DNA of 64,000 bases from Ostreococcus lucimarinus (GCA_000092065.1 CP000582.1), one strand, 5' to 3'. Positions 11,189 through 38,054 are shown, counted from the first letter of the stretch. The notes: a model not told the origin generated them from the letters alone. A program made the numbers and translations.

Positions 11189-11423
11189 GTCGCGCGCGCG
11201 AGCACGCGTGTGCGCGCGCGAGCACGCGACGTTCGCGCGTCGCGATGCGGCCGATGGACTGCGAGCAGGCTCATCTTGAATCTCTCGATTTTATCCTGTG
11301 CCCCGAACAGGTGGAGGTGGAAGTATTACATGTATTGCACGTTTGTGTTGCACGCGTCGACCCACGCGTCATCGTTCACGCGCGACGCGCGTTTCGCACT
11401 CATTCTATTCAATCGTCGTCGCA

Positions 11424-14341: not shown

Positions 14342-14455
14342 GATGAATCGTAGTTCGCGCACCATTAGCACAATTAATGTAACTTCTAGGCTCAGCATTC
14401 TATTCCATCTGACAACCGGAGAAGCCAACCTCTAACCGCCGAGGCGCCGCACTCT

Positions 14456-15532: not shown

Positions 15533-15562
15533 ATTTACAAGGTGTAATGAACGGAAAAGTAG

Positions 15563-16315: not shown

Positions 16316-16471
16316 CGTGCTCGAGCGTCGCGTTCGACAGTGAGGAACGGCGTGCGGAGCGGTGCGGTGCGGTGAGGATAATCTTCTACTTCGTGGTATC
16401 ACACAAGAATTGGTTAAATTGATTTTACGTCACGAGCGGCGAGCGAAAAGCGAACATCTGTCTAGCAACAA

Positions 16472-17753: not shown

Positions 17754-18457
17754 GGCTGATACGAACGAACGAAAACTTGTTTCGATGTGCGTCACCGCGC
17801 GCGGCGAGGCGTCGACGTGTGCCGACCGCGCGGGCGCCGAATCGCGTCCTCGCGGCGGCGAGACGTCGAAGCCCCCATCGCGGGCGGCGGGGATGGTGGG
17901 GGAGTGTGATGGCTTTATTTTGTGTCATTATGCGTACACGGAGGCGATCTGTGAGATAAGTACGTCATAAATCACGTCACGACTGAATACACACATACGC
18001 GTACAGACGTCGTTATCGGACATTCGGCGCGACGGTGGATTCTCGCCTCGACGCAATCGCGCGCTGCACAGGACGAAGTGCGTCGCACGTGAAACGCGCG
18101 AGATGTCCACGGCGGCGGCGCGCGCGCTCGCGGCAGTCGTCGATGCAGAACGGAGCGGTACGTCGAGGGCGCGGCGCGACGCACACGCGCGATGTGCGCG
18201 CGCGATGAGATGAAGGAATCGCGTTTGGATGCTGATGCCGATGATTGACGCGACGAACGATGGATGGCGGACGCGTCGACGCATTCGACGACGACGCACC
18301 GCGAACGAATCGATCGCGATCGATGCGCTCGTAGACTGACGCGGGTGATGACGCACACGCAGTGACGAACGTGGCGAAAGGGCGGGTGTTGAACCGAATG
18401 GAGGAATACGTCGACGTCGAGCGTCGCGAAGACGGCGAAGACGCGAGCGCGTTGGAG

Positions 18458-18583
18458 GTGCGATGATGACGACGCGCGCGAAGTGACACGAACCCTCGCG
18501 CGTGAAATGACGTCTGATGCGTCGCAAACGGTCCGAGACTGACGATTCTACGGTGCGGATGCCGACGACGTACCCAATCTAGG
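18458..18583 (+). other. Candidate 5' intron of the WD40 gene (126 nt, GT-AG)
   Basis: Donor GTGCGATGAT. Branch CCGAGACTGACGATTCTAC (CTGAC 18539-18543, 40 nt before the AG). Acceptor gtacccaatctAG. The interval contains in-frame stops. Confidence 0.5.
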
Positions 18584-21063: not shown

Positions 21064-21214
21064 GCCAAGGATTGTTATTTTCATCTATCGCTTCCACGTG
21101 ACCACGCGAGAGCATCTCGAATTATTCACACGCTCGCGCGTACTTCGCCGTAACGCTCAAAACTTCGACGTCTTCCAACGCGCGTGCGTACAATCCATCT
21201 TAGTTTGCTTGTTC

Positions 21215-23350: not shown

Positions 23351-26300
23351 CGTACGATGATTCGGAGGAGCGCCTCGAGCATCACTCAGAAGCACGCGCC
23401 GCTATCGTTTTCAAGCGTCTTCGTCACCGAAATCAGCGATGAATTTCCACACGGGGAGATCGACGCTCAGACTGTCATACCGCTTCGCCGCTTTGACGTC
23501 GAGCACCACTTTTCTTGCGGCGATGATTTCGCAACAGCGCCTCTTGGTAGCATCGACGTTCGATTTGCGGCGCTGCTTGCAAACTTTGACGAAGAAGACT
23601 TGCTTGCTTGTGAATTGTCGCCCGTCGAAGCCTCGTACGTGGATCCGCAGCATCGCATTTTGCTCCGTCAAACGCTGCCTGTGCTTCATTTTTCAAATCA
23701 GAGTGCCGACGTCGTCACTGGCGTATTCGTCGGTTGTATGTGGGCTGACGATTACTCGAACGTTTTGTCGTCGTTTCAGTGTGTTTTCGTCTCGCCCAAC
23801 GCCACTCTTGGAATTGGATCCGGATTGGCTTTCCTCAGTGGTCGCATTTCGTTCTCCGCGAATTTGTCTGGGCCGGCGATCGGTTGTGACACGGCGTGCT
23901 CATCTTCTCTTGTTGCGTGCTCTCTTGGTCTGAGCTCGATGATGAAATTTGAATGCGACTCATCGCTGTGCGCGGGCACGAATCTTCTGCTTTTCGTAAA
24001 CACGCATTCAAAAATATGCCGATTAAACGCACTTGCCATGGATGGTCGCTGCAAGACACTGGACTACGCTGCGGATGGTTACGGACGAAGTGAGGGCGTC
24101 GGTAGTTGTCTACTATCGGTTGAAAATGGAAATCCGTGCCATGGGACGTTGGTTTACGTCGGAGTGAACCAAGACGCTCGTAGTGCTGCGCTCGTCGCGC
24201 CCCGCGGCGCCGCTCAATCAGCAGTCATAGCAGAGACGTGCTCGAGGTGCGTTGGGCAACTTACCGTTTACGAACTGCACGGTACTGGTACACAACTCGG
24301 AGATCCAATCGAAATCAGTGCTCTTCGCGAGGCGCTCGAGTGTACGGAGATAGATCTCGTGGCCATTTCCATCACGAGCGTGAAAGCTTCGTTTGGACAT
24401 AGCGAAGGCTCGGCTGGGATCGCTGGGCTTCTCTCCGCCATCATCTCCGACAAAAATCGTCAACGAATGCCGATTCATCATCTGATACATCTTAATCCTC
24501 ACGTAGCAGAGATATCGAATGGGTTGTCGACGCCATTTTCCTTTGGTCGAGTTTTGAGCGCCGGCGTGCGGATAAATCAGAGGAACGGTCGCGGTGAGCA
24601 CTCTGGCGTGAGCGCGTTCGGGATGTCAGGCACGAACGCGAGCGCACTACTTCGGTCAGCTGTACGTAGTGAACAGATAAAGCGCACGAATCGAAGAATT
24701 CTTCTCGATCTCGCGACTTGGTGCTCCATTGATCCGCCCACATTCCCGGCGCTGTTCAGCTTTTGCGTCGCTAGCGACAATGTACTCTTCCAAATCCGTA
24801 TCGATGCTCGCATTTACTCAGGAGCATTCGATATGAGCATTCAACACATGAAGTTCTTCCCTAGTGGACATTGCGTTGAAACCGCGCGTCAGTGCGCGTC
24901 AACGCTAGGGCAAAGATCAGCCGTTGTCAACAGCTTCACGATTCATTCGCCGTTGCGCTTGGCTGAAAATCGCGGCACAGACGTCGTCGTAACCGTTGAC
25001 AAAAGGTCTGGCTTCGTAACGACGGGATCAGCGGACGCATTGGTGAAGTATGCAACGTGTCGGTTTACAATACCCGTGCATTCAATTCCTCCCAAAGGCG
25101 CGCGATGGAACGCTGTCAGAGCAACACCGCCAACCACGATCACCGCTTCGATTCAGCGCACGCAAAAGGTGCGCACCGATTGCATCGACCCGATCTATCT
25201 GGAATCTTTGTTTCAGATAAATTCAGCTTTGCGGCTCGGTGCGACACTGCTAGGATCTCTCAACGCGTATTGCACGCTGACGCGATTTCCTCCGCACGGG
25301 CATCTCAGCGTTACCATGGCTGGTGAATGCGGTAACCTTGCGAGTGCGACGCGTATGACGGGACTCACGCTACATAGAGTGCGAGCAAATGCATTTACAA
25401 GCGCGCGACGAATATCTGACATGCTCTATCACGTATCTTGGTGCGCGGCTGGTGTCGCGACAGCGAGCGGTCGAACTCATCAATCTTTGCGATTAATCAA
25501 CCTCACGGCAAAAGCTTGCGATGCCGTCTGCGCCGGGTTGTCGGCGATTCAGTCTTTCGATGACGCGTCTATCTCAGCTGTTTCGGCAGAAGTTATGCCA
25601 CTCGCGTGTCGCGGCGACGCGTTGCTGGCGCTTGTGCGCACCGCCGCACAAGAGCTTCCTACGATTCGATTCGCTGGCATTCGTTGTGCCGAGAACGCTT
25701 CTTCCTATGACGCACGCGCAAAGTCGTACGCCCCAGGTGCAGCATGTGATATTAAAATCGACGCCCAAGTGGTGTACGAGCAACGCCTTTCTCGCGTCAA
25801 CATGGAATCGTCAACAAGTGAGAACCAAACGTCGTACGCCGTACTCATCACCGGAGGTCTCGGTGGCGTTGGTTTTCACATGGCTAAATGGCTACTTTCT
25901 CACGAGAGTTCTTCATTCACCAACTTACTGAGCCGGATCGGCCGTCAAAATGTGTCATTCGGCGATATCGATGGCAAGAGCGCGCTCATTATTCGTAGAT
26001 GTGATCTCTCTGATCACGAAGACGTTGTCGAAGTTCTCAAGTCGACGAAGATGCGGGCTCCTTTACGAAAGATTTTACACGCGAGTGGGATAATTCTCGA
26101 TAACACACTCGCGAAACAAAATCACGACGGCGTAAAACAAGTTTTTGCTGCAAAAGTAAGCGCGTTTGAAAACATCGAAATGTGTGTCGGGTGTCTGGAG
26201 GCGGTTCACACGAGCGTCGTTTGTAGTTCGATCGCTTCAACTTTTGGCTCACCTGGTCAAAGTAATTATTCTGCCGCAAACGCCGTCCTCGACTTTTACG

Positions 26301-29300
26301 CGATTTCCAGTCAGTATCACGGGCGACCACTTTCTAGCGTACAATGGGGTGCTTGGTGCTCCGTGGGCATGGCTTCGCGAGGAGGTTCATACATCGCTCG
26401 GGCTGAGCGCGTCGGTTTCGGCACAATCACGCCAGACGAGGGTGTTGACGTCCTACGTCGAATTTTCACTGGATGGACGACTTCGATCGTCGCAAGCCCA
26501 TTTGACTGGAACAAAATGGTAAAGAACGCTCCGATGTTCACGATGCTCGAATCTTTTTTGGGAACAAGTGGGCACAAAATCGCCCAGCCAAAAGTCATCG
26601 AAGACAAAGAGCGCATCCGCTTCCGAGTCCGAAGTATTGTCGAGAGCATTTTGGGCGGCAGCCCAGATGCAGACGCTCCACTTGCATCATCCGGTTTAGA
26701 TTCACTCTCTGCGAACGAGCTGAAGATGGAAATTGACGCGGAATTTGGCGTACAAACTCCGGCAACTTTGGTGTACGATTATCCATCAATCAATACGCTC
26801 AGCGCGTGCGTTGTTTCAGTGCTTCAGCCATCGATAAAGCTCGTGGAAGAATATCACTCGCCACAAATGAATATGACTGCGCAGACCGACATATGTGGTG
26901 TGATTTTGGGCGGTGATATTCGCACCGCTGCAACCATGCGCTTCCCTGTAGATGCGATTTCAATCGCGCCATATGGGCGTTGGGACAACAACTTTTGGAT
27001 GGATGCCAGAAACATGACGTTTCCTTTTTCTAGCGCATTCATGGTGCACTTCACAGAGTTTGACAATGATCTATTTGGCATTCCAGGCGTCGAAACACTT
27101 CTCTTGGATCCTCAGCAAAGAACGTTACTAGAAGGTGCCTTCGCGGTCGTCGACATCTCATCCCAGCAAGACGATACAACCGTATGGGTTGGCATCACCG
27201 TGTCGCAGTATAAGACCGACGTAATCAATGTGTACTGGGCACCTGCATTTCATTCATCCATGGGCACCGGAAGCTTACCAAGTGTGGCTGCGGGAAGATT
27301 GAGCTACGTGTTTTCGATGTCTGGAGCATCGATGAGCGTCGATACCGCGTGTAGCTCATCGCTGGTCGCGTGTTCTCTTGCGTTTGACTCGCTGCGTAAG
27401 CAGTGTTTGGGATCATCTGCTTTGGTGTGCGGTACGGTGGCTATGATGTCTGTTTCGGGCACAATTGATCGCCATTACGCAAACATGCTCTCCGTGGAGT
27501 GTCGTTGCAAGACTTTGGATGCAAGCGCGGACGGTTTCATTGAAGGTGAGGCGACTGGAATTATGAGTATGACGAGTGCCCTGAGAGCTTCTGGTGAAGG
27601 CGTTTCAATCAGTGGCACTGCGGTAAATCAAGATGGGCATAGCGCGTCTTTGACCGCTCCAAACGGTCCAGCGCAGACGCGCGTCATACGAGAAGCGCTT
27701 TGTTCGGCAAACATGCAAGGCGAAGAAATGGAAAGTATTTCACTGCACGGCACGGGAACGCCTCTCGGTGATCCAATCGAGCTTGGTGCCGCACTCGGCG
27801 CTCTTCAAGATTGCAAAAAACTGATGTTAGACGCGGTCAAGTCGCACGTTGGTCACTGCGAAACCGCGGCTGGCATCGTTGCTTTGTTGCGGGCACACGC
27901 GACGGTTTCCGATTCCATCGCTCACCCGGTACTGCATCTGCGTTCGCTCAATCAGCACTGTTCGTCGATAATTCAGACATCTGATACGAACGCGCCAATC
28001 GTTATACCGCGTCAAAAGGTGGATGCGAATTTCAAGACGATGGGGATTTCAGCCTTTGCGTTCCAGGGTACGAATGCGCACGCAATTCAGCGTTTGAACA
28101 GCGGCACAGTGCGAGCGGCGGTATCGAGGTTTGCGTTTCATCGACGTGAATTTTGGCCCTTGCCCACTCTACATCCACATATCTTATCGTGTACCGCTTC
28201 GACGAGTGATTTCGCGCGGTTTTGTGGTCGAGTAGAGCCTCGCGGACACGCGCATTTGCTCGATCACGTTGTGGCTGAACGCCCGCTGTATCCGGGTGCT
28301 GGTTTTCAAGAACTTTGCGCGGCTTCTGCGCGTCTGATGTTCGCAATCAACGTCGTAGCCGTAGAATCAGTTGTTCCAGCACCGCTCGTCATGCGCACGC
28401 GGGAGTTGACGTTATTCACGGTGTCGACTGAGCTTCGCAAGGGAGAAATACGTATTCAGACAAAGTCTGGCGCTGTGACGCACACAAAGTGTTTCGCTAG
28501 ACGAGCGTGCGCTCAACCCCCGCAACAGGCATCGCTTAAGCTTCTTATGAAAAGTGTCATGCCAAGATCGTGTGCTTCCGTTCACGTACCAGACTGGCAT
28601 TTGGGTTACGTGGTCCATCCTGCCTCGTTAGACGCAAGTTTGCAGTTGGCCGCCGTCGTAGATCTGACAAACACGGAAGTCAAGGTCCCGGTGGGCGCCA
28701 AGGCGTATGTTTCGGTGAAATCTTCATCGAATGCGCCAACACACTTCGCGTCGTTGCTCAAGTCGAATCATTCACTCGAAAGATCTCGCATCGTTGGCCT
28801 ACAAGTGAAGACGATGAGGCGAACTGCTTCGCGGGCGGCGGCGCACATGCCGGCTTCAAAAGACACCTACACGCTGCGATGGTTTGTCGTGCGATCTACA
28901 GGAAGATCAAGCAAATGCGTTCACTTGACACTACGTAAATGGATTGTCACAAAGTCCGTCACGTGTGCGACGATCGGGTTAGCGCAAAACTTGGCATCTT
29001 CGAGAGCGGCCGCGCTGAACGCGGACCGCGCTCGAGCGATGGAAGCCGTTCGAGCGATCGTTCGCACGGTGGCTCAAGAAGTTCAGGGAGTGCAATTCGA
29101 AAGCACGCGGCATCGTGCGGAAGATTCACACTATGTCGAACGTTCATCGACCGCAGCGTTCGTTCAGGGTGCGCCGCACGAAGTCTCCGTAGATGCGCTC
29201 GCTCTCAGCGAACCCAGGCTTCGTCGTGCGGTGGTTGTAGATAAATGGTCGAGGAAACATCATTTGAATCAACGGATTTTCGCGCGTGGGGATACAAGCG

Positions 29301-32300
29301 AGAAGTACATCTTCATTACAGGCGGACTTGGGGCCATTGGAATGGAAGTAGCTCGAGAATTTGAGCGTCGTAGTTGGCGCGTTGTCCTATTGTCACGAAA
29401 CGGCCGCGCTCAAGCCTTCGGAGAAAGGCGAGGATCGCTAGTGAACGCCATCAAGTGCGATACATCTTGTTCGGACAGCCCATCGATTAGATCATGCAGC
29501 TTATTTTGTGTCGATAACACGGAGCGCTACGTGCTGCACGCTGCTGGCGTCTTATGCGACGCCCTTCTGAATCAAACGACCGCTCGGTCCGTCTTCGCGA
29601 CGATGGGCGCCAAATTGCTGTCTTCCAATCTTGCTTATGCCAAAGTCACGCGTGCGGTTGTGCTTTGCTCGTCCATCGCGGCGTTGACGGGCAATCCTGG
29701 CCAAACGAATTATGCAGCCGCTAATGCTTTACTCGACGCGGACGCCAGAGAGCAACGTTCTTTTGGAGATTCGTATTTCTCTGTGCAATGGGGCGGATGG
29801 GCAAACGTCGGCATGGCAGCAAGCAATCCGGCGGTTGTTCAGCGGTTGGTACGCATCGGTGCGGGTGCCGTAGATCCCAAGTTTGGGGTTGACATCATCG
29901 TTAAAGTCTTTCATGGGTTGATTCCGCACGAGTCCATAGCCGTGAGTCCGTTCAACTGGCGACAAATTTCAAAGTCTCTCCCGGCTTTCGGAATATTCAA
30001 GGATGTCGTCGAATGCGCTCATTCAACTACGACGACGGAAGTTAAGCCCCCTCGTGTCGGAACGAGCGCACTCGCGATGCAAACAATGAGCAAACGAGAT
30101 GTCGAGATAAAAATTTCTTCCTTAGTGCGCGCGCTAGTCGGTCGTGAGGTGGCGGTAAACGCCCCATTGATGGAAGCCGGGCTGGATTCGCAAGCAGCCG
30201 GAGAACTCAAGAATGAACTTGACGTCGCGTTCGGCGTCGAAGTCCCGGCTGTGGCCGTTTACGACTATCCTACAATAGCGGCACTGAGCTCATACATCGC
30301 GAGCGGCACGCAAATCGTGGAAAACTTTGAAAGTAGTCCCACAGTAGCAGAGCACTTTTTGAATGACGTCGTCGCTCACATCTCTGGCGCTGAATTATTA
30401 GTACCGACGCACTCGGGCGACGGCATTACACGCGTGCCGATGCATCGTTGGGACAACTCATGGTGGTGGGACAGAGAACAGATTTTCATACCTTCTTTCA
30501 GTGGTTTCTTGATCGGTTACGAGCTTTTTGATACGACGCTTTTCGGCATCGCGAGCACCGAGGCTTTGTTGATGGACGTGCAGCAGCGCTCCATTCTCGA
30601 AGGCGTCGCCAGCACGAGACTTGCGAGCCATGAAATCAAAGATGATGCGTTAGAAGGTGACTCGTGCGGAGTATATGTCGCGATATCATCCATGCAGTAC
30701 CAGGTCGAAGTGTTGGACAAGTTTTGGAGCAACCAGTTCTCTCCGTACATTGCAACAGGAAATACGCTTTCCGTCGCTGCTGGTCGTGTGTCTTTCATAT
30801 ATGGCTTGCGAGGTCCCTCCTTCTCTATAGACACCGCGTGTTCAACGAGTATTGTAGCGACGCACTTGTGCGTCGAAGGACTTCGATCGTTCGACTGCAC
30901 GTCAGGGATTGTGGCCGGCGTCATAAGCATCCTGGGACCAGGCGTGACTACAATTTTCTTCTCATCGGGTATGCTCTCACAATCGGGGCGGTGTAAGACC
31001 TTGGACGCCAGCGCAGACGGTTACGTGCGAGGCGAAGCTCGCGGTGTGTTCTTGGTTCACGGTATGGAGTCGCACGCAATATCATCTGGTGTCGCGATTG
31101 TCGGCTCAAGCATCAATCAAGACGGGCGGTCGAGCGGGCTTACGGCACCGAATGGGCCATCTCAACAGGCAGTCATGAAGCAAGCACTCCGAGCGTCGCG
31201 AGCAAATGGCGCCGAGATCGACAAGTTACAAATGCACGGCACAGGTACGCCACTAGGGGACCCCATTGAGGTTGGAGCCACCGCAGCGGTGCTGCAGAGA
31301 CAAAGTGGCGAACCCCTTACGCTCGAGGCTATCAAATCGCACGTGGGACACACGGAAACGGCGAGCGGAATGGTCGCATTAATGCAGCCCTTGCTTTCAC
31401 TCGTCGACTCTGACGTTGAGAAAATTCTGCACTTACGATGGGTAAATCCGCACATAGCATCTATCGTCGGCAAAGGTGCGTTCGTCTCTTCGCCGCGACA
31501 GAACTTTCCGAGAAACGCAAAGCTCGCGGGTGTGAGCTCGTTTGCCTTTCAAGGTACTAACGCGAACTCGATTCAACGCGTCACGATGGGAGACAAACTT
31601 CGACATCCAATCGTCTCACCGGCGTTCGTCAGAGAAACGTTTTATCCACTTCCAAAGTTACATCCGCAGATTCATGCGTTTTCAAAGACTTTCAAACGTG
31701 GCGACACGTTGAGGTTTTGCGCAAAAGTGAACGTGCGCACCCATGCACACTTACTCCACCACCGTGTGTTCGACAGAGCACTTTATCCAGGCGCTGGATT
31801 TCAAGAACTCGCGGGCGGCGCGGCGCGCACCTTCGACGCAAAGAGCGCTACAATACTGAATTCAGCCGTACCGGCGCCGTTGCAAATGTCTCTTCTGAAG
31901 GACACCGTGTTCGACGTTCGCATTCTCGCGCCAAGCGGTCGCCTGGATGTCCACAGTGCGAACATCATTTTCATGAAGTGCTACGTGCGTTTGCACGACA
32001 ACTGCAGATGTGAAAGCGTTACTACTTCGTCTAAGTCGTTCACAAAGCGTGCCAAGACGACAAAGATATCGCTCGCCAAGATCCATTCGCTCACAACGGA
32101 GCGCCACGTCGAATACTTCGTGCACCCGACGTGCTTGGATAGTACGCTACAACTCGGTGCAGTGATGAACGCGGGGTCCTCCGAGACAAAAGTTCCCGTG
32201 GGTGTGCACGCGTACGCTGCGCAGCAAATTTCTGTCAAACGGCGCAGTTTACACGCAAGCGCGAGCAATTCGAGTGGAAATTATGTACTCGAGCGCGCAA

Positions 32301-35300
32301 ATGTCGTCGGACTCGAGCTCAAGCCCATGCGCCGTGGAAAAGCACTCGTGACAAAACAAACGCGCATGCTATACGCGCTTCGTTGGTTTGCTCTACAACC
32401 GTGCGTTCCTGGTCAAAAGCGCACGGTGAGCGATTTAGAATCGTGTGCCACGTGTGGCGTCTTGACAGCCGCGTGCGCCGTCCAGTGTAATACGGCGACG
32501 GGTATCGAAATTGAAACCATTCGCACAACAAGCAACGATGCCCTGCACGGCTTTGCTCGGACGGTTGGACAAGAAATAAAGCAGCTTCGTACGGAGAGTG
32601 TTAGGTTCGACGGCGCGCGCACGCGGTACGTTGCGTCCGCAGATGCTTCGTTAAAGTTTGTCGGCGAATCGTATGATGTCCTCGTGCAGGCGAATATGAC
32701 GTACGGCTCACGTGTACGCAAGGCGCAAAATGTGATCAAACCGCCTTCCCGAAAGTCTCTCACTCTCGAAGTGCGTATCCCCCGTCAAGCTCCAAAGACG
32801 CTGCGCGTGATGATCACTGGTGGCTTGGGCGCCATCGGTGTCGAGTACGCGACACATGTGAACTCATCCACGATTGACGCTCGCGTGCGTCTTTTGGGTC
32901 GTTCTGGGCGCGGAGCGGAATTCGATGGACGTACATTCTCTTCGGTGCACGCGTGCAAATGTGACGCGGGATTTAGCGAAGATGTCAAACCTGTGGTATA
33001 TCACCAATGCGATGAGATTCTTCACGCGGCGGGCGTGTTACGTGACGGGTTAATTCGTTTTCAAAGTGCACTGTCAGTAAGAGTTGTCATCGGTGCGAAA
33101 GTTAACTCTTGGCAAACACTCGAATCACATCTCGTGGGTGCGATGGTACGACGCATAGTGCACTGTTCTTCGATCGCAGCTCTCACAGGCTCGAGTGGGC
33201 AGTCGAACTATTCCGCCGCGAACGCGTGTTTGGATTCAATCGCCGACTTTGCGAGATTTCGAGGCGACTCTATCAGCTCAATGCAATTTGGAGCGTGGTC
33301 GAACGCCGGTATGGCAGAGGCGCGGGTTTTAGAAAAGGTTAACTCGATGGGTTTCGGTGTCGTCACCCCTGAACTTGGCATGCGCGCTCTGGAGAGAGTC
33401 ATGTCGAGACAAGGCATCGGTAACGTCATCGCGACACCGTACGATTTCAAAAAGTTTGCAGAAGCTTTACCTGTCATACCGAGGATGTATCGAGACGTCG
33501 CCGTGAAGCAAAAACAGAAAACATCGAAGAAACAGCGCAAACACGTGGGCGGAGGCGCTGCGCGCTTGAGCGTCGCCGTCGTTCGTAGAAAAATTCAGCA
33601 GATTGCGACGCAAGTCATCGGAAGAGAAATAGGCTTGGACGAACCTCTCATGGACGCTGGGCTGGATAGTCTCGGAGGGCAGGAAATGAAGGCGCAGATT
33701 GAAGATGAATTTGCCGTCGAACTTCCCGCGACGGCCGCGTTTGATTACCCCACGGTTTCAGTGTTGGGGGATTTCGTCGCAGGGGAACTGGGCGCCGGCG
33801 ATGTTGATGAAGATGAAGACACAGCGGAAGGCTCTGGAATCTCAATCGCAGACGTTCAATCGCGCGTACTACAAATTGCCTGTCAAGTGATCGGTCGAGA
33901 TGTTGACCCGAACGAGCCGTTGATGGATTCGGGACTCGACAGTCTCGGCGGTCAAGAGATGAAGCAACAAATCGAAGATGAATTTGACATCGAGCTCCCA
34001 CCCACCGTGGTATTCGATTACCCGACCATTAAAGACTTGGCGACGTTCGTCGCTGACGAAATTGGAGCCACGGCTGCGACAAAGAAGTCACCAACCATCG
34101 TCGTCGCGTCGTCGTTGAAACACGTTGCAGTGCGGAACTTTGATCTTACCGCGCCTCACCCTCCCGATGCCGACGCGATTCGTCGCGTTCCATACCACAG
34201 ATGGGATCACGACTTTTATCAAGAAGCCGTGCAAGAGTACCACTCCTCTCGCGTGAGCGGCTACAACTTGCACGTCGCTCCGTTTGGTGGATTCATGACC
34301 AATTATATCTCGTTCGACAACCGGGCATTTGCGATTTCGGCGTTAGAAGCGCTCTACATGGACGTTCAGCAAAGATCTCTTCTAGAAGGCACGTTCCAAG
34401 CGACGACTGCTGGAACTTTCGCCGTCACTAGCGAAGACACGCTCGAAGGCTCGCTATCGTCTGGCGTCTGGGTCGGGATCGCCGCGTGCGATTACGCAGA
34501 TGAGGTATTGCGAAGGTATGAACACGCGCTTCATCCGTATTTGGTGAGCGGTACTTCTCTCAACGTCGCCGCTGGACGCATTTCGTACGTGTTCAACTTT
34601 AAAGGGCCCTCTGTGAGCGTAGATACTGCGTGTAGCTCCTCCATTGTCACGACGCACTCGGCGTTTATCAGTATGAGATCTTCAGAAATCGGTCGAGCAG
34701 TGTCTTGCGGAGTGCAAGCGATTCTCAGTGAGCACATCACTGGTGTTTTCCACTCTTCAGGAATGCTCGCGCCTGATGGCAGATGTAAAACGCTTGATGC
34801 GAGTGCCGACGGTTACGTCAGAGGCGAGGCTCGAGGCGTGCTCGCCCTCGAAGCCGTTGACGCGAGTGAAGCGGTGAATGTCACGAATGTTTTACTAGCC
34901 GGAGCGGCAGTAAATCAAGACGGGCGGAGTTCTTCGTTGACTGCTCCAAATGGACCGACTCAGAAGACTGTCATTCGCGCCGCCATTAGTACAGCTTCCG
35001 CGATGACGCGAGACGTGGACGTTCTGCAACTACACGGAACTGGCACCGCGCTGGGCGATCCAATTGAGATTGGAGCAGCGCTGAGCGCTCTCGAAAGATT
35101 ACCTGCAGATCGCGCTTTTACGTTGGAAGCAGTAAAAACGCACGTCGGACACACTGAAACAGCGGCAGGGGCGGTATCGTTGGTGCAAGAGACGAAAAAG
35201 TTGGCCGGCTGTGCTACGTCGCTCGTCGCGCACTTGCGCTTGGTAAGCCCACATTTGCTGGGTTTGTTTGCCAGTGCCCAAACGAATGGCACACACATCG

Positions 35301-36616
35301 CCCGACAGTTTTCAGCTCGTTTGGCATCACTCGTTAGCGTTTCGGGCTTCGCCTTTCAAGGCACGAACGCAAACGCTGTCCTACGATTGAACTCTTCAAA
35401 ATTGCCCGCGCCGCGTCATTGTCCCAAAGCCATCTTTCATCGATCGCGCTTCTGGCCACTTCCAGAGCTCCACGTCCACTTGAAGACGTTTGATGGCAGC
35501 AACGATGCCGTTACTTTTCGGTTTACCGCGTGTGTTGACGCGAGATTACATTCGCATTTGCTCGGTTGCAAAACTTCCGCGCGAGAAGCCATCTTTCCGA
35601 GTGCCGGTTTCCTTGAACTCGCGTGCGCGGCTTCACGAATATTCGATCGCGAACCCATGGCGTGCGACGCGGCCGTCTTCGCACCTCTAGCCTTACGTAC
35701 GAATGGCGTGTACTTCTTCACAGTGGCCGTGAACGCGAAATCGGGGGAAGTCGAGGCGAAGGAGTCTTTGGACCAAGGCGAGGCGTGTATGCAATGCCGA
35801 GTTCGTCGCACAGATTTGGCGTCGAGGCGAACAGCCCCCGGTCCCGTTTCATCATTGCTCGTCGGGCGTTCGGATTCATCGAATAGAACTGTTCGAGCAC
35901 GCGTCAAGGCGAGGAGCGAGCAATCGCACTTCGAATATCGCATAGATCCTTGTGCGCTCGAGAGCTCGTTCGCCGCGAGATCGGCGATGCGCGATCCGGG
36001 CGTGCTCCGGGCGTGCGCTAGGCACTACACCACGCCTCGGACGGCAGCGATGTCTATGATCGCGACCATATGTGATCATGCACACACAATGAACGAAGTT
36101 TACACGATCGGTGTCGTATTCAAGAGGCCGTTTGATCGAGTTTACCGACTCATCAGACAAACGTTCGCGGCGACACCCGAAGCGACGACTTCACTTCGCC
36201 GTGAAGTTGTGGCGCCGTTACCGCCGCTCGAATCGCTCGAATCAATCCAGCGTAAAATCTATGCGCATTGTTCGCGAATTACAGGCGCCTCGTCGATCGC
36301 GGGCGGCGACGCGCTCGTCGATCTTGGCATGGATTCCTTGGCGGCGGCGGAGTTGCGTGCGGCAATTCAAAACGAGTTCGGAATGTTGCTCCCCATTCAC
36401 GCCGCGTTCGAGTGTCCCACCGCCGATGCACTCGCGAGTTACATCGTTCGCGAACATACAAAAAAGCGAAAAGCGGAGACCGCGGGCGCAACGCGACCGG
36501 CGTCGACTGTTGAAGGCGAGACGGTTCGTTGGCTTGTCGTTATCGCGGTTATCGTCGTCGTGATGGTTTTACACATCGTAAAGTTGACGAGAGCAGTCTC
36601 GCTCGAAGATGCTTGA
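21215..36616 (+). CDS. Giant modular type I polyketide synthase, AT-less (trans-AT-like). Domain order: adenylation-ACP; KS-X-KR-ACP; KS-DH-KR-ACP; KS-DH-KR-ACP-ACP; KS-DH-ACP; C-terminal hydrophobic helix
   Basis: A single ORF is open from a GTG at 21098 and the first ATG is at 21215 (5133 aa). Adenylation motifs are FTSGTTGAPK, YGATEA, GEVLVRGP and PKSPTGKVLK. The four KS domains have active-site Cys codons at 23897, 27350, 30839 and 34631 (DTACSS/TS), each with HGTGTxLGDPIE and VGHxExAAG. The three KR domains have GGLGxxG and YSAANA/YAAANA. The three DH domains read HAHLLDHVVAERPLYPGAGFQE, HAHLLHHRVFDRALYPGAGFQE and HSHLLGC...FPSAGFLE. ACPs carry GLDSL/GMDSL. No GHSxG acyltransferase motif occurs anywhere in the ORF. 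Confidence 0.9.
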   Translation: MSSSSSSSWSRDPFLGMLPRSTKLIPKVSIPTAIVEDVISPWRALDDRCKTSPESRASIAVVDSSSRGVDAAHSVVEFSYRALRLEARTLASQLEQNHGIRKGDSVCCFLDNTAASIIASYAIAGLGARRVDINTRLSARETASRLKVANVRVIIAGDAYANKIASAVYSLMIDYSDLNGTDEPMSILYAAAPGASSMAELALPNYDTEQLAEFMDMMVESTRLCFDVYSAHRGGVDVVSGGGTDTYDAFLSESDEPCLGLLSQLERGDALCWTPRLAEEALLDCDFQVMFTSGTTGAPKVVTHTQRQVMLHAKSVAQCCAFASHDVWLHVAPLFHAMDAFAMYACVLVGAKQVCTASEIFDVKTTLQTMKDAGVTLTALTSTHLRMLVSDPAFAVSAKHLRMLSVGGSAVPVDLVASLKYQCPQCTYFTDYGATEACGKICTTLGAPSSSIESLARAGHAMPLFDVCVVKDSTSMESVEWNDVTRGEVLVRGPTVIGTFDGKWHTVGDVATVDASGSVKIVDRLSDIIIVGGENVYSSEVEAVLLERPEIEECAVFGMPDKVLGEVVCAAIVLNSRQASLNSSEVTKHCSSRLADFKRPQRLTIVESLPKSPTGKVLKLKLQAQLATRSHEDGTRPHAELSDVVRQEFIHAMDWNDDREIDTKQTFSSLGVRSTQAVSFANLLSDRLGLDLPSTLMFDHPNLNSVINFVAGRTMIRRSASSITQKHAPLSFSSVFVTEISDEFPHGEIDAQTVIPLRRFDVEHHFSCGDDFATAPLGSIDVRFAALLANFDEEDLLACELSPVEASYVDPQHRILLRQTLPVLHFSNQSADVVTGVFVGCMWADDYSNVLSSFQCVFVSPNATLGIGSGLAFLSGRISFSANLSGPAIGCDTACSSSLVACSLGLSSMMKFECDSSLCAGTNLLLFVNTHSKICRLNALAMDGRCKTLDYAADGYGRSEGVGSCLLSVENGNPCHGTLVYVGVNQDARSAALVAPRGAAQSAVIAETCSRCVGQLTVYELHGTGTQLGDPIEISALREALECTEIDLVAISITSVKASFGHSEGSAGIAGLLSAIISDKNRQRMPIHHLIHLNPHVAEISNGLSTPFSFGRVLSAGVRINQRNGRGEHSGVSAFGMSGTNASALLRSAVRSEQIKRTNRRILLDLATWCSIDPPTFPALFSFCVASDNVLFQIRIDARIYSGAFDMSIQHMKFFPSGHCVETARQCASTLGQRSAVVNSFTIHSPLRLAENRGTDVVVTVDKRSGFVTTGSADALVKYATCRFTIPVHSIPPKGARWNAVRATPPTTITASIQRTQKVRTDCIDPIYLESLFQINSALRLGATLLGSLNAYCTLTRFPPHGHLSVTMAGECGNLASATRMTGLTLHRVRANAFTSARRISDMLYHVSWCAAGVATASGRTHQSLRLINLTAKACDAVCAGLSAIQSFDDASISAVSAEVMPLACRGDALLALVRTAAQELPTIRFAGIRCAENASSYDARAKSYAPGAACDIKIDAQVVYEQRLSRVNMESSTSENQTSYAVLITGGLGGVGFHMAKWLLSHESSSFTNLLSRIGRQNVSFGDIDGKSALIIRRCDLSDHEDVVEVLKSTKMRAPLRKILHASGIILDNTLAKQNHDGVKQVFAAKVSAFENIEMCVGCLEAVHTSVVCSSIASTFGSPGQSNYSAANAVLDFYAISSQYHGRPLSSVQWGAWCSVGMASRGGSYIARAERVGFGTITPDEGVDVLRRIFTGWTTSIVASPFDWNKMVKNAPMFTMLESFLGTSGHKIAQPKVIEDKERIRFRVRSIVESILGGSPDADAPLASSGLDSLSANELKMEIDAEFGVQTPATLVYDYPSINTLSACVVSVLQPSIKLVEEYHSPQMNMTAQTDICGVILGGDIRTAATMRFPVDAISIAPYGRWDNNFWMDARNMTFPFSSAFMVHFTEFDNDLFGIPGVETLLLDPQQRTLLEGAFAVVDISSQQDDTTVWVGITVSQYKTDVINVYWAPAFHSSMGTGSLPSVAAGRLSYVFSMSGASMSVDTACSSSLVACSLAFDSLRKQCLGSSALVCGTVAMMSVSGTIDRHYANMLSVECRCKTLDASADGFIEGEATGIMSMTSALRASGEGVSISGTAVNQDGHSASLTAPNGPAQTRVIREALCSANMQGEEMESISLHGTGTPLGDPIELGAALGALQDCKKLMLDAVKSHVGHCETAAGIVALLRAHATVSDSIAHPVLHLRSLNQHCSSIIQTSDTNAPIVIPRQKVDANFKTMGISAFAFQGTNAHAIQRLNSGTVRAAVSRFAFHRREFWPLPTLHPHILSCTASTSDFARFCGRVEPRGHAHLLDHVVAERPLYPGAGFQELCAASARLMFAINVVAVESVVPAPLVMRTRELTLFTVSTELRKGEIRIQTKSGAVTHTKCFARRACAQPPQQASLKLLMKSVMPRSCASVHVPDWHLGYVVHPASLDASLQLAAVVDLTNTEVKVPVGAKAYVSVKSSSNAPTHFASLLKSNHSLERSRIVGLQVKTMRRTASRAAAHMPASKDTYTLRWFVVRSTGRSSKCVHLTLRKWIVTKSVTCATIGLAQNLASSRAAALNADRARAMEAVRAIVRTVAQEVQGVQFESTRHRAEDSHYVERSSTAAFVQGAPHEVSVDALALSEPRLRRAVVVDKWSRKHHLNQRIFARGDTSEKYIFITGGLGAIGMEVAREFERRSWRVVLLSRNGRAQAFGERRGSLVNAIKCDTSCSDSPSIRSCSLFCVDNTERYVLHAAGVLCDALLNQTTARSVFATMGAKLLSSNLAYAKVTRAVVLCSSIAALTGNPGQTNYAAANALLDADAREQRSFGDSYFSVQWGGWANVGMAASNPAVVQRLVRIGAGAVDPKFGVDIIVKVFHGLIPHESIAVSPFNWRQISKSLPAFGIFKDVVECAHSTTTTEVKPPRVGTSALAMQTMSKRDVEIKISSLVRALVGREVAVNAPLMEAGLDSQAAGELKNELDVAFGVEVPAVAVYDYPTIAALSSYIASGTQIVENFESSPTVAEHFLNDVVAHISGAELLVPTHSGDGITRVPMHRWDNSWWWDREQIFIPSFSGFLIGYELFDTTLFGIASTEALLMDVQQRSILEGVASTRLASHEIKDDALEGDSCGVYVAISSMQYQVEVLDKFWSNQFSPYIATGNTLSVAAGRVSFIYGLRGPSFSIDTACSTSIVATHLCVEGLRSFDCTSGIVAGVISILGPGVTTIFFSSGMLSQSGRCKTLDASADGYVRGEARGVFLVHGMESHAISSGVAIVGSSINQDGRSSGLTAPNGPSQQAVMKQALRASRANGAEIDKLQMHGTGTPLGDPIEVGATAAVLQRQSGEPLTLEAIKSHVGHTETASGMVALMQPLLSLVDSDVEKILHLRWVNPHIASIVGKGAFVSSPRQNFPRNAKLAGVSSFAFQGTNANSIQRVTMGDKLRHPIVSPAFVRETFYPLPKLHPQIHAFSKTFKRGDTLRFCAKVNVRTHAHLLHHRVFDRALYPGAGFQELAGGAARTFDAKSATILNSAVPAPLQMSLLKDTVFDVRILAPSGRLDVHSANIIFMKCYVRLHDNCRCESVTTSSKSFTKRAKTTKISLAKIHSLTTERHVEYFVHPTCLDSTLQLGAVMNAGSSETKVPVGVHAYAAQQISVKRRSLHASASNSSGNYVLERANVVGLELKPMRRGKALVTKQTRMLYALRWFALQPCVPGQKRTVSDLESCATCGVLTAACAVQCNTATGIEIETIRTTSNDALHGFARTVGQEIKQLRTESVRFDGARTRYVASADASLKFVGESYDVLVQANMTYGSRVRKAQNVIKPPSRKSLTLEVRIPRQAPKTLRVMITGGLGAIGVEYATHVNSSTIDARVRLLGRSGRGAEFDGRTFSSVHACKCDAGFSEDVKPVVYHQCDEILHAAGVLRDGLIRFQSALSVRVVIGAKVNSWQTLESHLVGAMVRRIVHCSSIAALTGSSGQSNYSAANACLDSIADFARFRGDSISSMQFGAWSNAGMAEARVLEKVNSMGFGVVTPELGMRALERVMSRQGIGNVIATPYDFKKFAEALPVIPRMYRDVAVKQKQKTSKKQRKHVGGGAARLSVAVVRRKIQQIATQVIGREIGLDEPLMDAGLDSLGGQEMKAQIEDEFAVELPATAAFDYPTVSVLGDFVAGELGAGDVDEDEDTAEGSGISIADVQSRVLQIACQVIGRDVDPNEPLMDSGLDSLGGQEMKQQIEDEFDIELPPTVVFDYPTIKDLATFVADEIGATAATKKSPTIVVASSLKHVAVRNFDLTAPHPPDADAIRRVPYHRWDHDFYQEAVQEYHSSRVSGYNLHVAPFGGFMTNYISFDNRAFAISALEALYMDVQQRSLLEGTFQATTAGTFAVTSEDTLEGSLSSGVWVGIAACDYADEVLRRYEHALHPYLVSGTSLNVAAGRISYVFNFKGPSVSVDTACSSSIVTTHSAFISMRSSEIGRAVSCGVQAILSEHITGVFHSSGMLAPDGRCKTLDASADGYVRGEARGVLALEAVDASEAVNVTNVLLAGAAVNQDGRSSSLTAPNGPTQKTVIRAAISTASAMTRDVDVLQLHGTGTALGDPIEIGAALSALERLPADRAFTLEAVKTHVGHTETAAGAVSLVQETKKLAGCATSLVAHLRLVSPHLLGLFASAQTNGTHIARQFSARLASLVSVSGFAFQGTNANAVLRLNSSKLPAPRHCPKAIFHRSRFWPLPELHVHLKTFDGSNDAVTFRFTACVDARLHSHLLGCKTSAREAIFPSAGFLELACAASRIFDREPMACDAAVFAPLALRTNGVYFFTVAVNAKSGEVEAKESLDQGEACMQCRVRRTDLASRRTAPGPVSSLLVGRSDSSNRTVRARVKARSEQSHFEYRIDPCALESSFAARSAMRDPGVLRACARHYTTPRTAAMSMIATICDHAHTMNEVYTIGVVFKRPFDRVYRLIRQTFAATPEATTSLRREVVAPLPPLESLESIQRKIYAHCSRITGASSIAGGDALVDLGMDSLAAAELRAAIQNEFGMLLPIHAAFECPTADALASYIVREHTKKRKAETAGATRPASTVEGETVRWLVVIAVIVVVMVLHIVKLTRAVSLEDA
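23400..26830 (+). other. PKS module 1: KS, then an approximately 390-aa domain of unclear type, then KR and ACP
   Basis: KS is about 23400-24690. KR runs from about 25840 (VLITGGLGGVGF, YSAANAVLD). The ACP GLDSLSANE is at about 26690. The region 24700-25830 has no acyltransferase signature and no canonical DH signature. Confidence 0.7.
26900..30310 (+). other. PKS module 2: KS-DH-KR-ACP
   Basis: KS about 26900-28100. The DH motif is at 28250. KR is at 29310-29900 (IFITGGLGAIGMEV). The ACP GLDSQAAGE is at about 30190. Confidence 0.75.
30380..34060 (+). other. PKS module 3: KS-DH-KR-ACP-ACP (tandem carrier doublet)
   Basis: KS about 30380-31580. DH is at 31740. KR is at 32800-33400. Two near-identical carriers are at about 33660 and 33930 (GLDSLGGQEMKAQIEDEF and GLDSLGGQEMKQQIEDEF). 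Confidence 0.75.
34180..36450 (+). other. PKS module 4: KS-DH-ACP (no KR)
   Basis: KS about 34180-35400. DH is at about 35560. The ACP GMDSLAAAELRAAIQNEF is at about 36320. There is no room for, and no motif of, a KR between the DH and the ACP. Confidence 0.7.
36527..36595 (+). other. Predicted C-terminal transmembrane/tail-anchor helix of the PKS (WLVVIAVIVVVMVLHIV)
   Basis: A 17-23-residue, purely hydrophobic stretch lies 10 residues before the stop. No thioesterase or reductase domain follows the last ACP. Confidence 0.55.
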
Positions 36617-36637
36617 TCGAAATGTACGCGAAAATGC

Positions 36638-37456
36638 TCACAACTCCCATGATCCTCCTGCAAAACGCTGCTTCCGCGCGCGCTTTGAGATTCGAGGCGT
36701 CTGCGGGCTCTCAATTTCATCGCCAGAGGATTCGCGCGCCGTCTTCGTCATCGACGAACTCGTCGTCGTCGGTTTATATCTCTTCGTCGTGACGTTGATC
36801 TTTTCACGAACATCGCGAATGAACGATCTTCCAAACTTGAATTGCTTAGGCGGCTGCGCATGTGGAAACAAAGTTTCCCACTGCCGCTTACCGACCTCTC
36901 GTATCGTCTCATCGCCGACATCGGACGCGTCCACGGCCCGCACCGTCGCCGCGTCCAACTTCGCCCGCATCTCTTCCCACGTCATCTTGCGTTCGGGCTT
37001 TTTCGTTCGTCTCGCGCGCGGTCTCTCCGCGTCCGCATTCGGCGCAAATTCTCGCTTGACCACGAGTCCGAGTCCGAGTCCGCGTCGATCCGACGTCGTC
37101 TCGTCGTCCGACCACCCCGCGGCCAGCGCTTCGGCATCGCGCACCATTCGCTCCAACCGCTCCACCCGTCGTTTCGCGCGAGAGATTTGTTTCGAGAGCA
37201 GCTTCTCGCGCTCGACGAGCGATTCGCGTTCGCGTTCCAGCGAGTGTCTCGCCGTCGTCTGTTCTCGCAGCGCCGCGCGCGGCGCCCTCGCCGCGACCGC
37301 CGCGTTCTCGCCTCCACGCGCACCGCCCTCGTCCACGGGCACCACGAAAAGATCATTCGCGACGTCTTCCTCCGCGATCGCGGGCGCCGTCGCCTCCGCG
37401 TCCGCGCGCCACACGGCGTCCTCGAGCAGCACGGCCAACTCGGTCGCCGCCCCCAT
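36638..37456 (-). CDS. Hypothetical coiled-coil protein (272 aa)
   Basis: ATG at 37456 (MGAATELAVLLEDAVW...). A heptad-like segment is LERERESLVEREKLLSKQISRAKRRVERLERMVRDAEALAAGW. GC3 is about 60 %. It is convergent with the PKS, with the two stop codons 22 bp apart. The long upstream part of the same ORF is Arg-rich noise and was trimmed. Confidence 0.4.
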   Translation of the reverse strand: MGAATELAVLLEDAVWRADAEATAPAIAEEDVANDLFVVPVDEGGARGGENAAVAARAPRAALREQTTARHSLERERESLVEREKLLSKQISRAKRRVERLERMVRDAEALAAGWSDDETTSDRRGLGLGLVVKREFAPNADAERPRARRTKKPERKMTWEEMRAKLDAATVRAVDASDVGDETIREVGKRQWETLFPHAQPPKQFKFGRSFIRDVREKINVTTKRYKPTTTSSSMTKTARESSGDEIESPQTPRISKRARKQRFAGGSWEL

Positions 37457-38054
37457 GTCGGCGATCGGTCCGCGCGTCAGAGTGATTGACCTCGATCGAT
37501 CTTTCCCCGAGATCGATCGATCGACGGTGCGAGGTTCGTTGAATTTCGATGACCCAGGATTCGACCGACAGACCGAGCCCGCGCCTGCCGACGGCGACGT
37601 CCGCACACCCGCGCGACGATGTTCACCGTCTCCGCCCCCACGCACGCGAGCCTTCGGGCGTTCAAGCCGAACACGGTGCGTGCGAATGAATTCGTCGATC
37701 GCGCGCGCGCGATGGCGCGACGACGCGCGACGACGCGACGACGCGACGACGCGTCGCGATGCGTTATCGGGGCGCGACGCGCGGAGGGTTTCGGAAAGAA
37801 TTCGAACGCGACCGGACGCGCGAGACGCGGCGTGGACGTCGAGCGCGGGCGCGGGGACGCGCGTTAAAAAATCATGCGCGCGGTGCCGCCGTCGATGGCG
37901 TCGAGCGCAGAGCGCGCGCCGGAGGGGGGCGCGCGGGGCGATTCGAGGGTCTGGGGGTGTAGGGTTTTCGGGAAGCGCGCGTTTCCGCGCGCGTTTCCGC
38001 GCGCGTGCGTGCGATGACTGACGAGTGGTACGACGCGCGTTTTGCGATCGGTAG

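What the first reader, a model, noticed from the sequence alone, without database searches (positions are those of the whole stretch)
36250..36616. PKS terminates in ACP followed by a hydrophobic tail helix instead of a thioesterase or reductase
After the last GMDSL carrier motif the protein continues with about 40 hydrophilic residues and then WLVVIAVIVVVMVLHIV, 10 residues before the stop. This looks like a C-terminal tail anchor. No thioesterase (GxSxG...H), reductase or condensation-like release domain is present. It suggests a membrane-tethered megasynthase whose product is off-loaded by a separate enzyme or passed on at a membrane. This is an unusual arrangement for a PKS.
Basis: seen in the sequence. 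Interest (0 to 1): 0.6.

Follow-up and report, generated by a model that had tools for sequence, protein, structure and literature searches.

The report
Tail-anchored giant algal polyketide synthase
A known 5,172-residue polyketide synthase of the tiny marine alga Ostreococcus lucimarinus ends in a carrier domain followed by one very hydrophobic helix, and every positional orthologue found has the same ending, so the enzyme is probably anchored to a membrane by its tail, which has not been described for such enzymes in the papers I could search.

Summary
The window is Ostreococcus lucimarinus CCE9901. The 21098-36616 ORF is the published trans-AT PKS OluPKS2 (ligase-ACP-[KS-(DH)-KR-ACP]x3-ACP-KS-DH*-ACP).

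The protein ends with ACP (36254-36445), a 24-residue hydrophilic linker, and then the 17-residue core WLVVIAVIVVVMVLHIV, followed by 11 residues and the stop. This core is the most hydrophobic window in the whole protein.

No thioesterase, reductase or condensation domain is present. A convergent ORF ends 22 nt after the stop, so no downstream exon is likely.

Ending in ACP without a release domain is already published for this gene and is common. The new point is the tail. Four full-length orthologues, three of them with checked synteny (PKS 42-51% identical, flanking genes 64-93%), and six fragments all end in ACP, a linker, and a 14-27-residue uncharged, non-amphipathic core 1-14 residues from the C-terminus. 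The tail sequence itself is not conserved. Forty-five other ACP-terminal PKSs among the 150 listed hits lack such a tail.

Best reading: a tail-anchored cytosolic megasynthase whose last ACP sits at a membrane. Membrane insertion, the target organelle and the release route are inferred, not shown.

Caveat: one related lineage carries a 74-nt frameshifting deletion upstream of the ACP-tail unit.

The parts
21215..36616 (+). OluPKS2, a trans-AT modular type I PKS. The ORF opens at 21098. The likely start is ATG 21215 (M40) or 21263 (M56), and the stop is at 36614-36616.
   Evidence: Uninterrupted 5,172-codon ORF. Pfam domains. The domain string matches OluPKS2 in PMC4661987 Table S2. The organism was fixed by exact neighbour proteins. 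N-terminal alignment to orthologues points to M40/M56.
21401..23062 (+). Loading AMP-dependent ligase (AMP-binding plus AMP-binding_C), similar to fatty-acid CoA ligases
   Evidence: Pfam E=1e-50 and 4e-18. The best NCBIfam similarities are long-chain-fatty-acid-CoA ligases, all below the curated cut-offs.
34622..35047 (+). Active-site region of KS4, the last ketosynthase (DTACSSS Cys motif to HGTGT)
   Evidence: Motif positions and Pfam ketoacyl-synt.
35480..36100 (+). Degenerate DH-like region of the last module. Cys replaces the catalytic His (HSHLLGC), and DPCALE replaces HPxxLD. Probably inactive.
   Evidence: Weak PKS_DH_N hit (E=0.094). Motif comparison with modules 2 and 3. The region is homologous and in frame in L019.
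36254..36445 (+). Terminal ACP (ACP4); phosphopantetheine Ser in GMDSL at 36326-36340
   Evidence: Pfam PP-binding E=1e-11. AF2 helices H8-23, H34-37, H41-55, H61-66 and H70-92, the carrier-protein helices.
36458..36529 (+). 24-residue hydrophilic linker TKKRKAETAGATRPASTVEGETVR
   Evidence: Read from the sequence. In the AF2 model its start continues the last ACP helix. The middle (model residues 93-101) is low-confidence (pLDDT<50).
36530..36580 (+). Hydrophobic core WLVVIAVIVVVMVLHIV, the predicted tail-anchor transmembrane helix
   Evidence: Top hydropathy window. Mean hydrophobicity 0.97 and hydrophobic moment 0.12. AF2 helix 100-132, block pLDDT up to 90. An equivalent core is present in all orthologues.
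36581..36616 (+). 11-residue C-terminal extension KLTRAVSLEDA plus the stop codon
   Evidence: The extension is 1-14 residues long in orthologues.
36638..37456 (-). Convergent 272-codon ORF whose stop lies 22 nt after the PKS stop. It has no Pfam family.
   Evidence: It is called as a gene in contigs L002 and L004. It is truncated at inversion junctions in other contigs.

Best explanation
The ORF is OluPKS2 of Ostreococcus lucimarinus, a cytosolic trans-AT assembly-line PKS. It has a fatty-acid-ligase-like loading domain and four extension modules.

Its C-terminus is a tail anchor. The last ACP is joined by a roughly 24-residue flexible, basic linker to a single uniformly hydrophobic helix that ends 11 residues before the C-terminus.

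Because the only hydrophobic segment leaves the ribosome after termination, and there is no N-terminal signal or transit peptide, the roughly 550 kDa synthase would be inserted post-translationally into an organelle membrane. The catalytic mass would stay in the cytosol and the terminal ACP would sit within a few nanometres of the bilayer.

The last module (KS, inactive DH-like region, ACP, no KR) would carry a beta-keto acyl chain. With no TE, R or C domain in cis, the chain would be taken off in trans at the membrane. A discrete hydrolase or acyltransferase could do this. Alternatively the chain could pass to a KS-first partner synthase: OluPKS1 begins with a KS according to PMC4661987.

Shown: the sequence anatomy, the absence of a release domain, conservation of the tail's character in positional orthologues, and its specificity to this orthologue group.

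Inferred: actual membrane insertion, topology, target organelle, release route and product.
For: Anatomy and hydropathy.

No release domain.

No signal-peptide-like N-terminus in this protein or in three orthologues (max 9-mer KD <=1.5).

All ten tails have high mean hydrophobicity (0.80-1.06) and a very low helical moment (0.02-0.20). They are membrane-spanning in character, not amphipathic.

AF2 with an 8-sequence alignment gives an ACP bundle, a low-confidence linker and one long helix (mean pLDDT 79).

Conservation: L017 (88% identity) has WFVLIAIVFVVVVMVL. L018-L020/P0112 (38-42%) have PPVLVFLFALVALLVSSVFYIA. P0107, P0108, P0109, P0111, P0114, P0117 and P0294 each have a different 14-27-residue uncharged core 1-14 residues from the end, often flanked by Arg/Lys.

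Orthology by synteny (Ost-alpha transporter, methyltransferase, PAP-fibrillin, S1, EDC4, PKS, L9). Flanking proteins are 64-93% identical while the PKS is 42-51% identical.

Specificity control: 52 of the 150 listed hits end within 130 residues of an ACP serine. Seven of those are the orthologues. The other 45 have KD17 <=1.4 in their last 70 residues.

No room for a downstream exon.
Against: There is no experimental or transcript evidence for this gene's 3' end.

No dedicated TM predictor was available. The hydropathy scales and an AF2 helix are indirect evidence.

Between the window and the 88%-identical lineage, the linker-plus-tail evolves almost neutrally at the amino-acid level (pN/pS about 0.8 on few sites, against about 0.26 for the ACP). 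The constraint is therefore on composition only.

The P0109 and P0117 cores are only moderately hydrophobic (KD19 1.8-2.0).

In the L001/L017 lineage a 74-nt deletion frameshifts the ORF upstream of the ACP-tail unit. There the unit is either separate or the gene is decaying.

I found no precedent for an integral-membrane-anchored type I PKS. That raises the prior for some other role.
Confidence: 0.65

Rival explanations
1. The hydrophobic tail is real and selected, but it is not a bilayer-spanning anchor. It could mediate self-association or docking with a partner synthase. It could also bind a lipid-droplet or plastoglobule-like monolayer.
For: Multi-subunit PKSs commonly carry short C-terminal docking elements after a terminal ACP (own knowledge). 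OluPKS1 starts with a KS and could be a partner (PMC4661987 Table S2). Only hydrophobic character, not sequence, is conserved. Some cores are short (14-16 residues).
Against: Docking helices are amphipathic and sequence-specific. These tails have helical moments of 0.02-0.20 with mean hydrophobicity 0.8-1.06, and no polar face. Basic residues flank the core, as in membrane anchors. None of the 45 other ACP-terminal PKSs among the listed hits has anything comparable.
Confidence: 0.17
2. The ACP-tail unit is not, or not always, part of the megasynthase. It could be produced as a small free-standing tail-anchored carrier protein. Alternatively the last module is degenerating, so the gene model that ends in ACP-TM overstates what the cell makes.
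For: In lineage L001/L017 a 74-nt deletion (window 35861-35934) frameshifts the ORF to a stop near window 36029. The ACP-tail ORF stays open behind in-frame ATGs and a 9-nt ATGAGATCT insertion. The DH-like region of the last module has lost its catalytic His. Gene callers report short ACP-tail proteins on short contigs (P0293, P0114, P0294).
Against: In the window, in five near-identical contigs (L012-L016) and in four divergent full-length orthologues, the ORF runs uninterrupted from KS4 into the tail. The deleted stretch is homologous coding sequence in L019, not an intron. The deletion rests on one 1,079-nt metagenome contig. The short called proteins come from short contigs, so they may be truncated ends of the same large ORF rather than separate genes.
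Confidence: 0.1
3. The hydrophobic stretch is an unselected by-product of composition: GTC/GTT/ATC-rich sequence before the first stop after the ACP.
For: The core is encoded by repetitive GTC/GTT/ATC codons. Shuffles reach this hydropathy somewhere in the protein in 2% of trials. Near-neutral pN/pS in the tail.
Against: A hydrophobic core at the same place occurs in all ten orthologous sequences despite different residues and codons. It is absent from the 45 control PKSs. Only 1 of 2,000 shuffles put such a window in the last 48 residues.
Confidence: 0.03

Closest known systems
OluPKS2 (JGI 29828) of O. lucimarinus and OtaPKS6 (Ot02g07060) of O. tauri, as catalogued by Shelest et al. 2015 (PMC4661987)
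   Same: It is the same gene. The published string, AMP-ligase-ACP-KS-KR-ACP-KS-KR-ACP-KS-KR-ACP2-KS-ACP, trans-AT with no TE, matches. OtaPKS6 has the same layout.
   Different: That paper does not contain the word 'transmembrane' and lists nothing after the last ACP. The conserved hydrophobic tail and the DH-like regions are additions made here.
Tail-anchored membrane proteins, including giant ones such as giantin and the KASH-domain nesprins (own knowledge)
   Same: A single C-terminal hydrophobic helix, a short luminal extension of 1-14 residues, no N-terminal signal, and a very large cytosolic body.
   Different: Known TA proteins are not assembly-line biosynthetic enzymes. Insertion pathway and destination are untested here.
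Membrane-coupled lipid PKS systems of mycobacteria (PpsE-MmpL7, Pks13) and the membrane-associated bacillaene megacomplex of Bacillus subtilis
   Same: The idea that a fatty-acid-primed PKS works at a membrane, so that a lipophilic product is handed over directly. The loading domain resembles fatty-acid ligases.
   Different: Those systems associate with membranes through partner proteins, not through a transmembrane helix in the synthase itself. They are bacterial.
PKS subunits that end in ACP without TE, R or C domains (non-terminal subunits of trans-AT lines; TE-less synthases released by discrete enzymes)
   Same: ACP as the last catalytic domain. 45 of the 143 non-orthologous listed hits end this way, as do several algal PKSs in PMC4661987 Table S2.
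   Different: None of those 45 has a hydrophobic tail (KD17 <=1.4). They end in short hydrophilic or docking-type sequences.

Membership tests
trans-AT modular type I PKS | Multiple KS domains with the active-site Cys and the HGTGT His motif | tested here: met
   Four KS domains: DTACS[ST]S at aa 931, 2082, 3245 and 4509, and HGTGT at aa 1061, 2217, 3380 and 4646. Pfam ketoacyl-synt E=1e-64 and 1e-91.
trans-AT modular type I PKS | Carrier domains with the phosphopantetheine Ser motif in each module | tested here: met
   Six ACP motifs; Pfam PP-binding.
trans-AT modular type I PKS | No integrated acyltransferase domain | tested here: met
   No Acyl_transf_1 hit at E<=0.01 in either half of the protein. 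Classified trans-AT in PMC4661987.
trans-AT modular type I PKS | A discrete AT encoded elsewhere that loads the ACPs | not testable with these tools
   None of the ten neighbouring ORFs scanned is an AT. The rest of the genome is not available here.
Tail-anchored (TA) membrane protein | A single hydrophobic transmembrane segment in the whole protein | tested here: met
   There is one window with KD19 2.86; the next best is 1.92. It is the only window with a negative summed insertion energy. Prediction only.
Tail-anchored (TA) membrane protein | The segment lies within about 30-40 residues of the C-terminus, so it leaves the ribosome only after termination | tested here: met
   11 residues follow the core here, and 1-14 in orthologues.
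Tail-anchored (TA) membrane protein | No N-terminal signal or transit sequence | tested here: met
   The N-termini of the window protein and three orthologues have no hydrophobic h-region (max KD9 <=1.5). In P0108 the conserved domain starts about 20 residues from the Met. No dedicated predictor was run.
Tail-anchored (TA) membrane protein | Post-translational insertion and integral membrane behaviour in vivo | not testable with these tools
   Needs localisation and fractionation experiments.
PKS terminal module with a cis release domain (TE, reductase or condensation-like) | An alpha/beta-hydrolase TE, NAD-binding R or C domain after the last ACP | tested here: not met
   No such Pfam hit even at E<=1 on the last 449 residues. 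Only 52 residues follow the ACP. The downstream + strand ORF has no Pfam family.
C-terminal PKS docking domain | Short amphipathic helices after the last ACP that pair with an N-terminal partner element | tested here: not met
   The tails have a hydrophobic moment of 0.02-0.20 and a uniformly apolar core. The partner subunit could not be examined.

The most novel reading that the evidence does not exclude
This Ostreococcus-type orthologue group is a family of modular type I PKSs that are integral tail-anchored membrane proteins. It would be the first case in which the assembly line itself carries the membrane anchor. The last carrier domain would deliver a fatty-acid-primed polyketide straight into, or across, an organelle membrane. 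That would explain why no release domain is needed in cis, and it would point to where the unknown product of these abundant picoalgae should be sought.
Probability: 0.5. Interest if true: 0.65.

Novelty: new variant of a known kind. Interest (0 to 1): 0.52.

Why it matters
The products and cellular roles of the giant PKSs of Mamiellales picoalgae are unknown, although these algae are globally abundant and the genes sit in rapidly rearranging outlier chromosome regions (bioRxiv 10.1101/2025.04.21.649811).

A conserved tail anchor gives a concrete, cheap experimental handle. The last ~60 residues can be fused to a reporter, or deleted, in a transformable alga (Ostreococcus tauri). The anchor also predicts that the product is a membrane-destined lipid-like molecule made at a specific organelle surface.

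It would add a new way of organising assembly-line enzymes spatially, which is also of interest for engineering surface-displayed synthases.

The TE-less, ACP-terminal architecture on its own is ordinary and already published.

Tried and rejected
1. Intron hypothesis. The 74-nt gap in L001 looked like a spliced intron of the low-GC outlier region. I rejected this because the boundaries are not GT...AG. The stretch is also in-frame coding sequence homologous to the DH second-half motif region in L019.

2. Recent insertion. The low GC of the PKS, and contigs breaking next to it, suggested a strain-specific inserted island. I rejected this because three divergent lineages keep the PKS between EDC4 and L9. 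The breaks are inversion junctions.

3. Biosynthetic cluster. No AT, TE, PPTase or acyltransferase lies nearby. The neighbours that have Pfam hits are housekeeping genes. The gene downstream in L018 is unrelated.

4. The word-indexed protein search returned only short fragments. The exhaustive representative search was needed to find the full-length orthologues.

5. Exact look-ups of the 272-residue downstream ORF and the 463-residue ORF found nothing.

6. Species names for the orthologues could not be obtained. All are unnamed metagenome proteins.

7. Literature searches for tail-anchored or membrane-anchored PKSs found no precedent. This is absence in an open-access library, not proof of absence.

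8. No long inverted repeats explain the inversion breakpoints.

Full report
**Identity of the locus.** Seven of eight neighbouring ORFs queried are exact matches in the protein collection. One of them carries Ostreococcus lucimarinus CCE9901 accessions itself, and other clusters contain O. lucimarinus entries from an 895,087-bp record. The finding lies at the 3' end of an uninterrupted 5,172-codon ORF, 21098-36616 (+).

Pfam finds the following domains:
- an AMP-dependent ligase;
- six carrier domains;
- four ketosynthases, each with DTACS[ST]S and HGTGT;
- three ketoreductases;
- DH-like regions;
- no acyltransferase.

This is the domain string published for OluPKS2 (JGI 29828), classified as a non-iterative trans-AT PKS in Table S2 of Shelest et al. 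2015 (PMC4661987). The O. tauri entry OtaPKS6 has the same layout. So the gene, and the fact that it ends in an ACP with no thioesterase, are already in the literature. Several other algal PKSs in that table also end in ACP or KS.

**The observation.** The last GMDSL motif is at aa 5077-5081. The Pfam carrier domain runs to about aa 5116. A 24-residue hydrophilic, initially basic linker (TKKRKAETAGATRPASTVEGETVR) follows. Then comes WLVVIAVIVVVMVLHIV (aa 5145-5161, nt 36530-36580), then KLTRAVSLEDA, then the stop.

There are 63 residues, most of which are the ACP fold. The rest of the description is correct.

This segment is the most hydrophobic 19-residue window of the protein, with KD 2.86 against 1.92 for the runner-up. 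It is the only window with a negative summed insertion energy on a Hessa-type scale that I wrote from memory. In 2,000 shuffles of the protein's residues, only one placed an equally hydrophobic window in the last 48 residues.

An AlphaFold2 model of the last 133 residues, built on an 8-sequence alignment, has mean pLDDT 79. It shows the carrier-protein helices, a low-confidence stretch, and one long helix over residues 100-132.

**No release domain, and no room for one.** No TE, terminal reductase or condensation domain appears, even at E<=1. A convergent 272-codon ORF on the minus strand stops at 36638, 22 nt after the PKS stop. The overlapping + strand ORF has no Pfam family. In near-identical contigs, the next gene called on the PKS strand is ribosomal protein L9. 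The neighbours that have Pfam hits are housekeeping genes such as EDC4, an Ost-alpha transporter, PAP-fibrillin, RelA/SpoT and GlyRS, so there is no biosynthetic cluster.

**Do orthologues end the same way?** Yes.
- A metagenome scan with the last 226 residues found near-identical contigs (L012-L016), a lineage at 88% identity (L017) and a lineage at 38-42% identity (L018-L020). All end in ACP, a linker and a hydrophobic core close to the stop.
- An exhaustive HMMER search of 1.84 billion representatives put four full-length synthases at the top: P0107 (4,793 aa), P0108 (5,228 aa), P0109 (5,465 aa) and P0111 (4,701 aa). Fragments P0112, P0114 and P0117 were also found.
- A profile search added P0294.
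- Every one of these has an uncharged core of 14-27 residues lying 1-14 residues from the C-terminus and 85-106 residues after the ACP serine. The core is often bracketed by Arg/Lys.
- The residues differ completely between lineages: V/I-rich, L/A-rich or F-rich.
- All ten cores have high mean hydrophobicity (0.80-1.06) and very low helical moment (0.02-0.20). That is the signature of a membrane span, not an amphipathic docking helix.

**Orthology is positional.** The contigs carrying P0111 and a P0108-type protein show the order Ost-alpha transporter, methyltransferase, PAP-fibrillin, S1, EDC4, PKS. The contigs carrying P0107 and the P0108-type protein have L9 downstream. This matches the window. 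Flanking proteins are 64-93% identical to the window's, whereas the PKS is only 42-51% identical. The tail's character has therefore survived extensive divergence of a fast-evolving gene.

**Specificity control.** Among the 150 listed hits, 52 end within 130 residues of an ACP serine. Seven are the orthologues. The other 45 have at most KD17 = 1.4 in their last 70 residues. Ending in ACP is common. Ending in ACP plus a hydrophobic helix is a hallmark of this orthologue group.

**Mechanism.** The N-termini of the window protein and three orthologues lack any signal-peptide-like hydrophobic region. In P0108 the conserved domain starts about 20 residues from the Met. One hydrophobic helix at the extreme C-terminus, a short extension and no N-terminal signal meet the in-silico definition of a tail-anchored protein.

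I therefore propose that the roughly 550 kDa synthase is inserted post-translationally into an organelle membrane. Its body would stay in the cytosol, and its last ACP would be held on a roughly 24-residue tether next to the bilayer.

The loading domain is most similar to long-chain fatty-acid ligases, though below the curated cut-offs. The last module has a KS, a DH-like region whose catalytic His is replaced by Cys, and no KR. The tethered end product is thus plausibly a fatty-acid-primed, partly reduced chain ending in a beta-keto thioester. Release must be in trans. A discrete hydrolase or acyltransferase at the membrane could do it, or the chain could pass to a KS-first synthase such as OluPKS1 (Table S2).

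Membrane insertion, organelle, topology, release route and product are all inferences.

**Caveats.**
1. There is no transcript or protein evidence.
2. Against the 88% lineage, the linker and tail change almost as fast at non-synonymous as at synonymous sites (pN/pS about 0.8, few sites), whereas the ACP is constrained (about 0.26). Selection is on composition only, which is usual for simple anchors but weakens the statistical case.
3. In that same lineage, contig L001 has a 74-nt deletion (window 35861-35934) inside the degenerate DH. L001 overlaps L017 with 114 identical bases. The deletion shifts the frame to a stop near 36029. The ACP-tail ORF stays open behind in-frame ATGs and a 9-nt insertion. 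The deleted stretch is coding in L019, so it is not an intron. It may be an assembly error, gene decay, or a split that yields a free tail-anchored ACP.
4. The cores of P0109 and P0117 are only moderately hydrophobic.

**Novelty.** Three relevant papers do not mention a transmembrane segment: PMC4661987, PMC7073580 and bioRxiv 10.1101/2025.04.21.649811. Full-text searches for tail-anchored or membrane-anchored PKSs returned nothing pertinent. The gene is known and the TE-less architecture is known. The conserved tail anchor appears to be an unreported variant of PKS organisation.

I rate it moderately interesting. It is a clear, well-conserved and experimentally tractable feature, but its function is so far only predicted.

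Noticed in passing
window 388 and 37374; loci L003, L005-L011: Several environmental contigs that are 99.8-99.9% identical to the window join window 37374 directly to window 388 in inverted orientation, or end within a few bases of that point. This implies a ~37-kb inversion polymorphism (388..37373) that carries the whole PKS. Other contigs (L002, L004, L012-L016) have the window's arrangement. No long inverted repeats lie at the breakpoints.
   Followed up: partly
L017 1415-1433 (window 37548 joined to 6187): The 88-92%-identical lineage has a different inversion junction, equivalent to inversion of window 6188..37548. Its breakpoint is only ~175 bp from the one above. The region just 3' of the PKS looks like a recurrent rearrangement site.
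   Followed up: partly
window 35861-35934; L001: A 74-nt frameshifting deletion in a 94%-identical lineage lies inside the degenerate DH of the last module. It gives a premature stop near window 36029. A 9-nt insertion (ATGAGATCT) lies just before the in-frame ATGs that precede the ACP-tail ORF.
   Followed up: partly
window 21098-36616 versus flanks: The PKS has lower GC (0.537) than its flanking genes (0.599). The same contrast is seen in orthologous loci L021 and L022 but not in L023. The PKS also diverges far faster (42-51% identity) than the flanking genes (64-93%).
   Followed up: partly
window 35549-35600 and about 35930-35960: The DH-like region of the terminal module has Cys in place of the catalytic His (HSHLLGC, against HAHLLDH and HAHLLHH in modules 2 and 3). 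It has DPCALE in place of HPxxLD. It is probably an inactive structural remnant.
   Followed up: partly
window 36638-37456 (-): A 272-codon ORF convergent with the PKS has no Pfam family. It is cut by the inversion junction in many contigs (only 56 or 27 codons are called there), so it may not be a conserved gene.
   Followed up: no
L018 about 400-420 versus L019: L018 differs from L019 by small indels that break the PKS frame in the DH-like region (FTPVALQ versus FTCCSAK). This is either an assembly error or another frameshift variant in the terminal module of a divergent lineage.
   Followed up: no
tool behaviour (versus 37): The word-indexed protein search returned only short fragments and never the multi-thousand-residue PKSs. 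The exhaustive representative search did find them. A null result from the first tool for giant proteins should not be read as absence.
   Followed up: no
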